From contig JANJGN010000002.1 of assembly GCA_026770705.1 (NCBI GenBank), forward strand, positions 175,956,001 to 176,020,000: DNA of 64,000 nucleotides. The letters are read 5' to 3'. Source of the DNA: Isurus oxyrinchus (lineage: Eukaryota). This document shows, in pieces, positions 2,630 through 47,572 of the stretch. The notes beneath the pieces are model-generated. The model did no database searches. It was not told where the DNA came from and saw only the letters and a program-made list of their open reading frames with translations. Numbering within the stretch: position 1 is the stretch's first letter; every line of letters starts with the position of its first letter. A program made the position numbers and the translations under genes.

Positions 2630-4275
2630 TTTCCCGTCTCCCCTCATGCTTTGTCTGGGCTTGTCTTGTCCATAAGATCCACGCCATTCCCCCTTAGTCC
2701 AATTCCCACTAAACTGCTGAACACCCCTAAATGCCCTTCCTGGTGCCATGTTAGTGGATATTGTTAACAGGTCACTCTCCGCAGGTATTGTCCACTGTCC
2801 TTCAAATCTGCCATCATCATCTTTCTCCTCAAAAATTAACCCTTTATCTGTCCATCCATGAAAACCACCCACCACCTCAACCCCCACAATTTCCAACCTT
2901 CTTGTCCCCTTCAAAGTTCTTGAACGCATTGTCACCTACCAAAGTAGTGCTCACCTTTTCCAGAACTCCAAGTCTGAATCCCTCCAATTGGGTTTCTGCC
3001 CCATCACAGAACCCAAATGACTCTTATCAAAGTCACAAATTAATCCCTACATGATTGTGATGAAGGCAAATTATCGCTACTCACCTTTCTCAATTGTCTG
3101 CAGCCTTTGACATGGTTGATCACTCCATCCTCCTCCAACACCTTTCCACCATCATTCAACTGGGTAGAATAGCACTCACTCAGTTCCATTTTTACCTTTC
3201 TAATTGTAGCCAGAGAATTGCCTGGAATGGTTTCTCTTCCCAACCCTGCACAATTATCTCTGTCCCATCAGGATCTATCCTCAGCCCCCTTGTATTTCAC
3301 ATCCACAAGCTGCCTCTCAGACCAGTTTTCATGTATGTTGATGACACCCGGCTCTGCCTCACCATCACCTCCCTCAATCCCTCCTCTCCCTCTGAATTAT
3401 CAGACTGCTTGTCAGATATCCAATGTTAGATGAGTAGAAATTTCTTCAAACTAAGTATTGGGAAGATCAAAGCCATTGTCCTTGAACCCCACCACAAATT
3501 ATATTCACCAGCCACCAACTCCATCCCTCTCGATGGCAGCTGCCTAAGGCTGAATTAGACTGTTCAGAACCTTGGTGTCATATTTGATACTGAGAAGAGA
3601 TTCCAAACACATGTACTTGATGTCACTAAAACTCCCTATTTTGACCTCCAAAACGTTGACTGACTCCACTCCTAGCTCAGCTCACCTGCTCCTGAAACCT
3701 TCATCCATGCCTTTGTTACCTCTAGACCTAACTATTCCAATACATTCTGGCAGACCTCCCACATTCTACCTTTCATAAACCTGAGGTCACCTAAAACTCT
3801 GCTGCCCATGTCCCAACTCACAGCAAGTCCCATTCACGCATCACCCCTGTGCTCACTAAGGCGTACTGGTTCCTGATTAAGCAATGCCTCTATTTTAATA
3901 TGCTCATCTTTGTTTTCAAATCCCTGCATGGCCTTGTCCTTCACTATCTTTGTAACCACCCCCAGCCCCACAACCTTGCGAGAGATCTGTGCTCCTCAAT
4001 TCTGGATTCTACAGCATCCCAGTTTTAATTGCTCCAAGATTGGCAGCCGAGCCTTCAGCTGCCTAAGCCTTAAACTCTGTAATTCCCTCTGCCTCTCTAC
4101 CCCTCTTTTCCCTGTTTAAAGCCACTCTTAAAACCTACATCTCTAACCAAGCATTTGGTTAGCAGCCCTTAAATTTCCTTATGCAGCTCTGTGCCAAATA
4201 TCGTTTGATAATACTTGGGATGTTTTACGATGTCATATGATGTTAAAGATGATATATAAATACATATTATTGTTG
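2630..4275 (+). mobile_element. Decayed L2-clade LINE (RT region to 3' tail)
   Basis: Broken RT peptides LSAAFDMVDHSILL, VPSGSILSPLVF, MYVDDTRL, IGSRAFSC; ends ...ATATAAATAC..TTGTTGTTG, an L2-type tail; many stops and frameshifts. Confidence 0.85.
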
Positions 4276-16001: not shown

Positions 16002-16136
16002 CCTTGTTTGCCAGAATGCCGTCTATACTGTGTTTGGTCTTTTTATCTCCCTCTTCATATTCCTTTCTTTCACAGTCATCCTCTTCGTCCTCTTTCTTTC
16101 CGAATCTACTCCTCAGAATACGGCTTATTGAACTCA
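16002..16136 (-). CDS. pax3: Pax3 exon 4, end of paired domain, acidic segment and octapeptide
   Basis: [45 protein letters not shown]; octapeptide HSIDGILA; acceptor AACAAG|TGAGT, donor AAGG|GTAAGA; 135 nt; exons 1-4 sum to 586 nt in one frame. Confidence 0.93.
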
Positions 16137-16745: not shown

Positions 16746-16875
16746 CTGAGGGGATGGTGTTTCGGTCACACATGCCGTCTTTCAATAACTTATCCCGGAT
16801 TTCCCAACTAAACATTCCAGGATTCTCTTTCTTGTATTCTTCGATCTTTTTTTCCACGTCTGGTATTGCCATTTG
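16746..16875 (-). CDS. pax3: Pax3 exon 3, paired domain C-terminal (RED) subdomain
   Basis: [43 protein letters not shown]; RDKLL and CDRNT are Pax3-type (Pax7 has RDRLL, CDRST); acceptor TAAAAG|CAA, donor TCAG|GTTGGT; 130 nt. Confidence 0.93.
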
Positions 16876-18396
16876 CTTTTATTAAATGTGTTTTTTGCAA
16901 GAGAGAAAAAAAGGAGGGTTATTTACAACCGTGCTTCATTCCGACCTGCAAACGAACCTGACCTGTGCGTTATTTGCAGTCATATTCGGATATGCAAATT
17001 TGAAATAAGCAACAATGTATTTCCAAGTTCCAATTATTCCCGATATAACGTACTGCTGTTACACTTTCTTATAAAAGTCCTGGAAAAATTCGGTTGCACA
17101 TAAGATCATTTAAAACAAAACTAAAAGCGTGATGAACTTTTCAGATTTAATATGTAATGTGCTTTTTATTTGTCGAAAGTTTCCCTCTCTGAAGCACACA
17201 AAATTGGTTGCTGATCTAGGCTTTTTATTTAATGAAATTGGCTTACAGTGAACGAAAGTCAAATTGGACAAACAAAATCGGGTGCAAACTCTTTACTGAC
17301 TGGGAACTGTAGGTCAGTACTTGAACTTTGCAGACTCTTTATTGAAAAATGTGGTGTAGCTGTAATACAATTTCTGTGTTTAATGGTCTATATTACGATG
17401 ATCGCTGGTCATTATAGCCTGCGTGTTTAATTGCCTGTGACAAAACCATCCACATTACAGATTAAACTGCGAATCAAGTACTAGCGTGCGTTTTTGGCAA
17501 TGTAAACGAGCTTTGTACAATTTTGACTATCCTGCTCAACAGTGGTGAAGCAGTGTTGCCCGACAAGGAAATGCTGAAAGGCATTTAAATTAGCCGAGAT
17601 CCTCTTAATTTCACATGTTCTAATGTAACATTCTCTACCAAAAGGTTAATTAAAATTCCAAGTTTATTACACACAATGAAAATATCAAACAACTTTCACT
17701 AGATATATTTTGCATATCCGAGGAAGATAGACATTAAACTGATGATAATTCTGATATTTAATAAATCCCGTAACTATAATGAACATTACATTTAGTGTTA
17801 TTTGCAACACACAAATTGTGAATCCAATATATAAACACGCTACATCTCTGTAAACTCATCATTTTAATTAACGAATTCTTACACGTATCTTCAATTTTTT
17901 TAAGGATTATGTTGTTAGTTCCTCAAAATGCCTGGCATATTCCCAGTTTCAGATGATCAAATTTTAATACACCTTTCCAATAAAACACGTTGAATAAATG
18001 GAATTGAACGATATGGGCCACAAAATACAGATCTGATAATTATTATGTTCCAATATTTTAATGAATAAAACTCAAATCGTTTGCAATACCTCAACTGTGA
18101 CAAGCATTTGCGAGTATTACACTTGTACGTGTATGCACATATATAGATGGGACACATTCTGCAAATGCAGAATTTGATTTACAGTTTTAAAAAGTGATAC
18201 TACACTCCTCAGGTGGTTTTAGTCGATCTAACTTGCCTGCATTAGAAGTGCCTTTGAAAAGTACAGATAGTAGCACACTTTGTAGGTAAACCATAACAAC
18301 GTCTTTCGTGACGCTGTAGCTTGCATCAACTAAGTTCCAAATCTTAATCTTAATAAAGCAATTTGTGGACTGGCTGAAGACTTTAGTCCGGCTTAC

Positions 18397-18629
18397 CCTC
18401 GGTTTGCTCCCAGTGGCCCCTGGTCTGATAGAGCCCGTCTCCTGGTATCTGCAGAGGATTTTAGAGACACAACCGTGGGAGACCCTGAGCTGCCGAGAGA
18501 TGACACACGGTCTGATGCCGTGATGGGCCATTTCCACTATCTTGTGCCTGATGTGATTTGGCAGAGGCCGGCCATTTATAAAAACTCCTCCGAGCTGGTT
18601 CACTCTCCCTTGACCTAAAGGCGTTGACA
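18397..18629 (-). CDS. pax3: Pax3 exon 2, paired domain N-terminal (PAI) subdomain and linker
   Basis: [78 protein letters not shown]; acceptor AAATAG|TGTCA, donor AGG|GTAAGC; 233 nt, ends phase 0. Confidence 0.95.
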
Positions 18630-19569
18630 CTATTTGCAGTAAAAATGGCAGCATTAATAAACCTGGTCAAACTTAATCTCGCGGATAGAGAAGTGGAGAG
18701 GAAATCAAAAGATATCACATCAATGCTAAGAACACATCAGTCGACACAAGTGTTTATATATTTTACGCCATTCATTTGCAGGAAACATGCTCAAATGAGA
18801 CAGATTCTTGTTCCAGAACTTACCTTTTTTCCCTGCTGTCACTTGACAATAATATTTTAAATCGCACGATAAAGTTTGGACCTAATAGTTTGGAGCTATT
18901 AATTCATTTCTTTTGAATGATTGCTACTCAAGCTCTGTCATTACAATACTTAAATATAAATCAGGTCCCACCCATCACAAACATTTTGTATCAGCAGAAA
19001 AATCCCACAGTTGCCTTAAAATATGCTTTCAATCCCATTTAAAAACAGTTCACGAATCGGGCGCAGCCTCTATTTACAATTAACTGTCTTAGCTCAGGGA
19101 CCGGGCGCCCAGCGTTTTGATAGTGGTCAAGGAGCAACACACAGGACTGTAAAAACAAACTAAAGATATTTGAAACAACAAAGGAGGTTTGTTTCTGATT
19201 GATTTCACAGTTTGTCTCCATCAACTTTAAGGTGAGCCTATTGCATGTCATGCACCAATAAACTGTTGAAACACGGCTGTAGAATCTACTTACTGCATAT
19301 ATTGAACATGATACAGAAACATTTAAAAAAGGCTCTCTCCGGCGTGGGGGTGGGGTGGGGGGGGGGGGGAGACCAAGACAGTTACAGCTACATATCGAAA
19401 TGCATTACTGAGAGAGTGCAAGAACTTATAATGTATCGCCGTTGCCTCGCACAGGAGAGTTAATGTTCTGCGTGTGCGCGTTTTGCGGCTCCTTTTTTTT
19501 CCTCTTTAATGAAGTGCTGGGGTAGAAAACGAAAGTGCGCTCCGTCAGCTAAAGCATGTGCAGGCTCAC

Positions 19570-19657
19570 CTTCCAGTGGGAAACCGCTGCTGCGAGGATA
19601 ATTCTGTCCCGGGGCTGGCCGCATCATTCTTGGGACCGGTCCAGCCAACGTGCTCAT
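19570..19657 (-). CDS. pax3: Pax3 exon 1 coding part ([29 protein letters not shown])
   Basis: ATG at 19657-19655; translation matches the Pax3/7 N-terminus, and MSTLAG resembles Pax3 MTTLAG rather than Pax7 MAALPG; donor GAAG|GTGAGC, phase 1; 88 nt. Confidence 0.93.
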
Positions 19658-45969: not shown

Positions 45970-47572
45970 AGCCCTCCTTCCCACCTTTCTCCTTCCCTCC
46001 TACCTTCCCCTCCCCTCCACTATCTTCCCCCCCCACCCCTCCCCTCCCCACATGTTTCCCACCACCACTCCCCTCCCACCATCTTCCCCTCCCCTTCCCT
46101 CCCCTCTCATATTTCCCTCCTCTCTTCCCCTCCCCATCTTCCCCCATCTTCCCATGCCCCCAAAGCTTCCCTTGCCCCCCAGCTCCCCCTCGCACCCCAG
46201 CTTCTCCTCACCTCCCCAGCTTCCCCTTGCCCCTCCCCTATATTCCCCCTCCCATCACCTCCCCTCCCATCTTCTACTCACCTCCCCTATCTTCCCCTCT
46301 CCTCCCCTCTCCTCAGCTCTTCCCCTCCCCTCTTCCCCTCCCCTCCCCATTTCCCCACCCAACTTCCCCTCCCCTTCCCTCTTCCCTTCCAGTGATCCCT
46401 TCCCCTCCAATCTTCCCTTCCTCTTCAATATTCTGCTTCTCTTCTCCCTCCCCTTCTATTTTCCCCTCCTGTCTCCTCCCACCTTCTCCTCCCCTCCGTT
46501 CCACACCCTACCCTCTTCCCCTCCCCTTCCCCACCTCTCCCCTCCTTTCATCCCTTCCCTCCCCCTCTTCCCTTCCCTTCCAATTGCTTCCCATCTTCCC
46601 TTCCCCTCTTCCCATCACTTCCCCTCTTTGCTTCGCTTGCCCTCTTCCTTTCCCTTCCCCCTTCACCTCCTTACTTCACCCCCCACTCCCCTCTCCACTT
46701 CCCTGCCCCTTCCCCTCGCCTCTCATCCCCTCTGCTGCTCCCCTCACCTCTGCTCCCATCTTCACCTCGACTCCCTTCTTCCACTCATCTCCCCTCCCTT
46801 CTTCCTCTCCAATCTTCCATTCCTCTTCTCCCCTCCCCTCCATGCCTCTTCTCCCCTCCCCTGTATTCCCATCTTTTCCTCCCCTCCCCATCTCCTTCCC
46901 CTCCAATCTTCACTTCCACTCCAATCTTCCCTTCTCCTCCAATCCTTATTTCCACCCCAATCTTCCATTCCTGTTCTCTCCTCCCCTCCCCTCTTCCCCT
47001 CTCATATTCCCCTCCACTCCAATCTTCTCTTCCCCTCCAATTTTCCCCCCTCCAATCTTCCCTGCCCCTCCAAACTTCTCATCCCTTCCAATGTTTTGCT
47101 TCTCTTCTCCCCTACCTCTCCTCCTCTGCTCCCCTATTCCCTTTCCTTCCCCACTTCCCTTCTCTTCCTCTCTTCCCTTCCCTTCCCTACACCCCCTCCC
47201 CACTTCCCCTCCTCACTTGCCCTCCCCACTTCCCTTCCCCTCACTTCCCCCCCATCTTCATCTCCATTCCCTTCTTCCACTCAACTCCCCTCCCTGCTTC
47301 ACCTCCAATCTTCCCTTCTCCACCAATCTTCTGCTCATCTTCCCCCTCCCTTCTTCCCCTCCCCTCCCCTCCCCTTTCTCTTCCAATCTTCAGCTCCTCT
47401 TCCCCATCCCTGTCCCCATCTTCCCCTCCTCTCCCATCTTCCCCTCCCCTCCCCTCCCATCTTCTCCCTCTCCCATCTTCCCCTCCCCCATCTTCCCCTC
47501 CCCTCTCCTCCATTTACCCCCCTACCCTCCCCTCCCATCTTCCCCCCTCCTCCCACCTCCCATCTTCCCCAT
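45970..47572. repeat. ~1.6 kb low-complexity polypyrimidine tract (CCCCTCCC / ATCTTCCCC-type degenerate units)
   Basis: Plus strand almost entirely C/T with scattered A; gives spurious P/S/L/F-rich ORFs. Confidence 0.95.

What the first reader, a model, noticed from the sequence alone, without database searches (positions are those of the whole stretch)
18397..18423. Paired-domain linker altered: GAIGGSKP reads GATGSKP (I>T plus loss of one Gly)
Seen: the minus strand reads CCA GGG GCC ACT GGG AGC AAA CCG AGG|GTAAGC, so exon 2 is 233 nt rather than the 236 nt of human PAX3, while the rest of the exon matches human PAX3/PAX7. Known: the IGGSKP linker is nearly invariant across Pax proteins and makes minor-groove DNA contacts in paired-domain crystal structures, and nearby PAX3 substitutions cause Waardenburg syndrome. 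Inference: this is either a real lineage-specific change in DNA recognition by a neural crest/muscle regulator, or a consensus error at a G-run. The in-frame 3-nt loss plus a substitution is more than a simple 1-nt homopolymer slip.
Basis: partly seen in the sequence, partly recalled or inferred. Interest (0 to 1): 0.78.

Follow-up and report, generated by a model that had tools for sequence, protein, structure and literature searches.

The report
Shark-and-ray Pax3 with rebuilt DNA-binding linker
The muscle and neural-crest regulator Pax3 of all 15 sharks and rays whose proteins were seen has lost one glycine from a nearly invariant DNA-contacting linker, and always carries a glutamine a few residues on that returns the linker to standard length, a likely compensation that would leave a working protein with somewhat altered DNA contacts.

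Summary
Pax3 exon 2 (18629-18397, minus strand, 233 nt) ends GATGSKPR. The same bases stand in a same-sample contig, in a spliced contig from another study of the same species, and in a second species. The same linker is in 26 of 26 listed Pax3 proteins from 15 named sharks and rays. Eight of 8 other Pax genes of this genome keep IGGSKP. The change reaches into exon 3: GAIGGSKP(K/R)(Q)V(T/A)TP became [13 protein letters not shown]. The exon 3 acceptor reads AAG|CAA ATG, with no second AG, so the Q+/Q- splice choice known from mouse and zebrafish Pax3 is not available here. Glycine loss plus fixed Q gives the standard subdomain spacing (31 residues in 25 of 25; other Q+ forms 32). Best reading (0.55): compensated remodelling, with a working Pax3 and modestly changed minor-groove contacts. 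No binding was measured, and the chimaera state is unknown. The sequences are public; ten literature searches found no description. New variant of a known kind.

The parts
19570..19657 (-). Pax3 exon 1, coding part ([29 protein letters not shown]); one residue longer than bony-vertebrate Pax3
   Evidence: tblastn with elasmobranch Pax3, 97%; alignment; X15 contig joins it to exon 2 (loose end)
18397..18629 (-). Pax3 exon 2, 233 nt: PAI subdomain and first half of the linker
18397..18423 (-). Altered linker, 5' half: P-G-A-T-G-S-K-P-R; Ile68>Thr and loss of Gly69 or Gly70 (paired-domain numbering; PAX3 I101, G102/G103)
16876..16880 (-). Exon 3 acceptor AAAAG; the only AG in the 54 bases before the exon, and the next AG lies 15 bases into the exon (out of frame): no tandem acceptor
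   Evidence: used in the X15 spliced contig
16861..16875 (-). Altered linker, 3' half: CAA ATG GCA ATA CCA = Q-M-A-I-P (fixed Gln, Val>Met, Thr>Ile)
16746..16875 (-). Pax3 exon 3, 130 nt: end of linker, helices 4-5 of RED
16002..16136 (-). Pax3 exon 4, 135 nt: RED helix 6 and octapeptide HSIDGILA; no GL insertion

Best explanation
This is an intact Pax3 gene whose paired-domain linker reads [13 protein letters not shown], as in all 15 named sharks and rays seen, and the lost glycine is likely offset by a glutamine that is locked in because the exon 3 acceptor has no second AG. Shown: Ile68>Thr, loss of Gly69/70, Q in every listed protein, Val>Met and Thr>Ile, and a PAI-to-RED spacing equal to the standard (Q-minus) one. 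Inferred: the ancestor had the Q+/Q- tandem acceptor; after the glycine loss a Q-minus form would have been one residue shorter than nearly any paired domain seen, so loss of the distal acceptor was favoured or tolerated. Predicted: both helix-turn-helix units, PAI being unchanged, still dock on a standard bipartite site, while the minor-groove contacts in the middle of the site are changed, giving a modest, site-selective shift in affinity and no splice switch.
For: Fixed in 26 of 26 listed proteins, 7 batoid and 8 shark species. Spacing from Pro65 to WEIR is 31 in 25 of 25 elasmobranch Pax3, all Q+; among 135 other vertebrate-type Pax3/7 it is 32 in 106 Q+, 31 in 28 Q-, and 39 in one odd model. 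In diverse representatives it is 31 in 107 of 118, 32 in 9, shorter in 1, and 39 in 1; five unnamed proteins with a different linker sequence (GTSGSPKP) show the same length by count from that output, so length looks more constrained than sequence. Pfam PAX positions 1-125 match exactly 125 residues. No tandem AG at the acceptor; the X15 contig splices to Q. PAI has no elasmobranch-specific change. All eight exons sought lie in order on one contig. Q- binds bipartite sites better than Q+ in mouse (review PMC5852603, passages). PAX6 G73D loses one site but keeps two (PMC7046147, passages). Pax3 is expressed in shark and skate dermomyotome and fin-muscle precursors as in other vertebrates (passages).
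Against: No binding data. Equal net length may be coincidence: if GSKPR keeps its usual DNA register, the slack sits on the wrong side (PAI side one short, RED side one long as in Q+). The acceptor was seen as DNA in this organism only; elsewhere only through annotated proteins, 26 of 99 cluster members listed. Zero Q- among 15 species has a rough chance of 0.03 at the 21% Q- share of other entries, and those entries are not independent. Q+-only use occurs without any glycine loss (zebrafish Pax7; mouse pituitary Pax7). The residues after Q vary among teleost Pax3, so V>M and T>I may be drift. The order of events is not shown; no chimaera sequence was found.
Confidence: 0.55

Rival explanations
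1. Real but uncompensated: GSKPR stays in register, the PAI-side contacts are weakened, RED stays loosely engaged as in Q+, and Pax3 works mainly through PAI plus homeodomain. The fixed Q is incidental.
For: GSKPR is kept letter for letter in 26 of 26. RED is described as dispensable for PAX3 binding (PMC13024339 passages). PAX6 G72C, S74G and P76R lower affinity under two-fold, G72S 2.8-fold. An independent Ile68>Thr stands in an Austrofundulus Pax7 copy.
Against: The new linker is itself invariant across sharks and rays but for one A/T site, which argues for constraint on the new state; RED is well conserved; the length lands exactly on the standard value.
Confidence: 0.27
2. Adaptive respecification: the new linker reads different central bases and gives shark and ray Pax3 its own target set, apart from Pax7.
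For: Four marked changes fall within 11 linker residues while PAI has none. The PAX6 linker reads four central bases, and G73D is site-selective.
Against: Expression looks conventional. No target, motif or selection test supports it; codon data for the clade were not available.
Confidence: 0.15
3. A decaying or redundant Pax3 copy under relaxed selection.
For: The motif is otherwise nearly invariant, and such lesions suggest loss of function.
Against: One locus with all exons in order; full-length proteins with paired domain, homeodomain and C-terminal domain; 97% identity between two distant sharks; spliced contig.
Confidence: 0.02
4. Consensus error at a G-run in this assembly.
For: The Pax7 paralogue of this assembly does carry a 1-nt G-run insertion in exon 2 and a frame break in exon 1.
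Against: Same bases in four runs of four studies and two species; same protein in 15 named species.
Confidence: 0.01

Closest known systems
Vertebrate Pax3 (group III paired-box protein), Q+ and Q- isoforms
   Same: Identical PAI subdomain, octapeptide, homeodomain, Pax3-type termini and exon layout; best non-elasmobranch hits are Pax3 at 83-86%. Length equals Q-, the Gln equals Q+.
   Different: Ile68>Thr, one Gly lost, QMAIP for QVTTP, and no tandem acceptor, so one form where mouse and zebrafish make two.
Elasmobranch Pax7
   Same: Same PAI and GSKPRQ.
   Different: Keeps GAIGGSKPRQVATP, spacing 32.
Solved paired domains: Prd 1PDN, PAX5 1K78, PAX8 2K27, PAX6 6PAX
   Same: E 3e-37 to 4e-27 to exon 2 alone.
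   Different: The three alignments shown (1PDN, 1K78, 2K27) keep VIGGSKP, and the query opens a one-residue gap there; no structure with this linker was found.
Human PAX6 linker disease alleles G72C, G72S, G73D, S74G, P76R
   Same: Same motif positions (paired-domain 69, 70, 71, 73).
   Different: Heterozygous disease substitutions of unchanged length; here a fixed deletion with a second-site length correction.
Austrofundulus limnaeus Pax7 copy (GATGGSKP)
   Same: Independent Ile68>Thr.
   Different: Both glycines kept; Q+ and Q- sized forms (253 and 252 aa) are both annotated.

Membership tests
Pax group III (Pax3/7) | Complete paired domain | tested here: met
   PF00292 1-125/125 in P0011 and P0137; window exons 2 and 3 match profile 1-74 and 75-116; exon 4 carries helix 6
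Pax group III (Pax3/7) | Octapeptide | tested here: met
   HSIDGILA in exon 4
Pax group III (Pax3/7) | Paired-type homeodomain downstream in the same gene | tested here: met
   Exons at G000:C2:175923262-471 and 175919617-805, minus strand, 96% and 90% to P0137; PF00046
Pax3 rather than Pax7 | Pax3-type termini and nearest relatives | tested here: met
   Window exons 88-98% to proteins named Pax-3 by NCBI; exon 1 is 97% to Pax3 against 66-79% to Pax7; a separate Pax7-like locus lies on C15
Pax3 rather than Pax7 | Conserved synteny | not tested
   Neighbouring genes were not examined
Canonical paired-domain linker | Ile68-Gly69-Gly70-Ser-Lys-Pro | tested here: not met
   Thr68 and one Gly in 25 of 25 against Gly-Gly in 164 of 164 others
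Canonical paired-domain linker | Standard PAI-RED spacing | tested here: met
   31 residues, as in Q- forms and in 107 of 118 diverse paired domains
Pax3/7 Q+/Q- splice switch | Tandem acceptor at intron 2/exon 3 | tested here: not met
   Single AG, then CAA ATG; DNA seen in this organism only
Paired-domain DNA binding | Binds standard paired sites with linker in the minor groove | not testable with these tools
   No protein-DNA assay or model available; DNA-free models leave the linker below pLDDT 50

The most novel reading that the evidence does not exclude
The ancestor of sharks and rays re-engineered the Pax3 paired-domain linker: it deleted a minor-groove glycine, abolished the Q+/Q- splice switch to restore length, and so gave Pax3 a different readout of the middle of its binding site, separating its targets from those of Pax7 in neural crest and fin-muscle precursors throughout the clade.
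Probability: 0.2. Interest if true: 0.75.

Novelty: new variant of a known kind. Interest (0 to 1): 0.5.

Why it matters
The IGGSKP linker is among the most conserved parts of Pax proteins, and substitutions there are human disease alleles in PAX6. A whole vertebrate clade carries a deletion there in its Pax3, apparently with a second-site fix through splicing. It is a natural experiment on whether linker length or residue identity sets PAI-RED cooperation, and on what the Q+/Q- switch is for. It also gives a rare indel marker for elasmobranchs, and warns that catshark and skate Pax3 may not stand for the ancestral jawed-vertebrate protein. If binding proves unchanged, it is a conserved curiosity that shows tolerance in the linker.

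Tried and rejected
Assembly error and pseudogene readings: rejected. Chimaera Pax3: no holocephalan entry among the 120 rows listed in each, nor among 15 listed of 88 cluster members (searches gave the same 15); the supplements of PMC3759438 list its presence but hold no sequence. State unknown. AlphaFold2 on P0125 with 24 and 112 sequences: both subdomains fold, residues 101-107 stay below pLDDT 50; helix 4 starts at 108 in one model and 112 in the other, and no canonical control was folded, so nothing is drawn from it. No holder was on record as RNA (X15 is RNA by guess). Pax7 exon 3 was not found in this assembly (an N gap follows exon 2), so its acceptor could not serve as an internal control. 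Primary papers Vogan 1996, Vogan and Gros 1997 and Xu 1999 are not held. Earlier findings of the scan: none.

Full report
Observation. The exon is 18629-18397, 233 nt, and ends [12 protein letters not shown]. Against Prd, PAX5 and PAX8 the alignment opens a one-residue gap at this place. Enumeration shows that no single contiguous 3-nt deletion turns Gly-Ala-Ile-Gly-Gly-Ser codons into GATGS, so at least two events are needed.

Is it an error? No. Four runs were laid on 18150-18900. X1, possibly the source sample, is identical. X15 (same organism, other sample and study, RNA by guess, depth 3-3.7) has no other letter across the exon, and its loose ends match the end of exon 1 and the start of exon 3. 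Organism B, in two studies, differs at 7 substitutions and 2 indels, none in the linker. The doubt was reasonable: the Pax7 paralogue of this assembly has a 1-nt insertion in a G-run of exon 2 and a frame break in exon 1 (not checked against reads).

What gene? Exons 1-4 lie in the window; exons 5-8 follow in order on the same contig and strand. Termini, octapeptide and nearest relatives are those of Pax3. Synteny was not tested. The eight other paired-box loci whose linker was read (Pax7-, three Pax2/5/8-, two Pax1/9- and two Pax6-like; my labels) all keep IGGSKP.

How widespread? A search with exon 2 gave three clusters at 100% identity, all named Pax3 of sharks or rays. Of their 99 members 26 were listed, and 26 of 26 carry GATGSKPR; the 25 that extend further read QM(A/T)IPD. 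They come from 7 batoids (Hemitrygon, Hypanus, Mobula, Pristis, Narcine, Amblyraja, Leucoraja) and 8 sharks (Stegostoma, Rhincodon, Chiloscyllium, Hemiscyllium, two Scyliorhinus, Mustelus, Heptranchias). The query was the variant itself, but full-length and short-form searches showed no other elasmobranch Pax3 cluster among 120 listed rows each. The change therefore likely predates the shark-ray split (some 250 million years or more; recalled). No chimaera sequence was seen, so the change may be elasmobranch- or chondrichthyan-wide.

How unusual? Of 339 stored proteins, 189 passed a pattern for a complete paired domain; among the 164 that are not elasmobranch Pax3, both glycines are kept in 164 and Ile68 in 162, the two exceptions being isoforms of one killifish Pax7 copy (about 34 of the 164 are models lacking exon 3). 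In a broader set, 133 new representatives of 150 listed, 125 of 132 linkers keep Gly-Gly; the 7 that do not are unnamed and none has this form.

Exon 3 (16875-16746, 130 nt) begins AAAAG|CAA ATG GCA ATA CCA. Mouse and zebrafish Pax3 splice here with or without a glutamine, and the mouse Q- form binds sites that use both subdomains more strongly (review PMC5852603, passages; the primary papers were not held). That this rests on a tandem AG whose second member ends the Gln codon is recalled. Here the Gln codon is CAA, no other AG lies in the 54 bases upstream, and the next is out of frame. The X15 contig splices to Q. Counting from Pro65 to WEIR, elasmobranch Pax3 has 31 residues in 25 of 25; other vertebrate-type Pax3/7 have 32 when Q+ (106) and 31 when Q- (28), with one odd model at 39. 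Diverse paired domains have 31 in 107 of 118, and the Pfam profile's 125 positions match 125 residues. Lamprey Pax3/7 has the Q, so Q itself is old.

Mechanism. Shown: sequence, fixation in the species seen, loss of the tandem acceptor in this organism, standard net length, unchanged PAI. Inferred: after the glycine loss a Q- form would be 30 residues, a length not seen or 71 (one protein has 29), so fixing Q kept the two subdomains at standard distance. Predicted: binding to paired sites is retained with altered central contacts. In PAX6 the linker lies in the minor groove; on site P6B Kd goes from 0.41 uM to 0.58 (G72C), 1.2 (G72S), 0.489 (G73D), 0.70 (S74G) and 0.74 (P76R), and G73D loses a second site entirely (PMC7046147, passages). 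That fits a modest, site-selective effect. Against it: the length match may be chance, since GSKPR may hold its register; Q+-only use is known without any deletion; RED is called dispensable for PAX3 (PMC13024339, passages); and residues after Q vary in teleosts. Shark and skate Pax3 expression is conventional (PMC8505881 and 10.1101/644062, passages), which fits a working gene and speaks against no rival but decay. DNA-free models do not resolve the linker.

Novelty. The proteins are in NCBI. Ten full-text searches listed no paper describing the change; the strings GATGSKP and ATGSKPR had 0 occurrences in the 3 papers listed of 4 counted. Figures, subscription journals and bioRxiv supplements are not searched, so an alignment in print may show it. 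Other papers seen as passages only: PMC10415112, PMC4901127, PMC3759438 (four supplements searched), PMC4488758, PMC10931086, PMC12939336, PMC7056646, PMC3559089; none of these passages mentions it, and none gives a Waardenburg allele at this linker.

Verdict. Real, clade-wide variant of Pax3 (about 0.97 that it is genuine and functional); compensated remodelling 0.55; a changed specificity of biological weight 0.15-0.2. Interest 0.5.

Noticed in passing
window 19570-19657 (-), exon 1: Elasmobranch Pax3 has one extra residue before the paired domain (RSSGF, RSGGF, RGSGF or RNGGF against RSGF), in all five elasmobranch Pax3 rows of the alignment.
   Followed up: partly
L019:2251-2340 and 3900-4138 (G000:C15, Pax7-like): Frame break in exon 1, an extra G in a G-run early in exon 2, and a 100-base N gap at L019:4583-4682: probably assembly errors.
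   Followed up: partly
G000:C171, C997, C306: Pax7-like 3' exons lie on other contigs than C15, each found twice with identical scores, suggesting unplaced or duplicated haplotigs.
   Followed up: no
P0303 and P0338 (Austrofundulus limnaeus Pax7 copy): Independent Ile68>Thr with further linker changes (GATGGSKPRVPTLD).
   Followed up: partly
P0413, P0415, P0425, P0431, P0435 (unnamed): A Pax3/7-like family with linker GTSGSPKPRVITKD, of standard length but without Gly-Gly.
   Followed up: no
window 46007-47561: Long C/T-rich low-complexity tandem tract.
   Followed up: no
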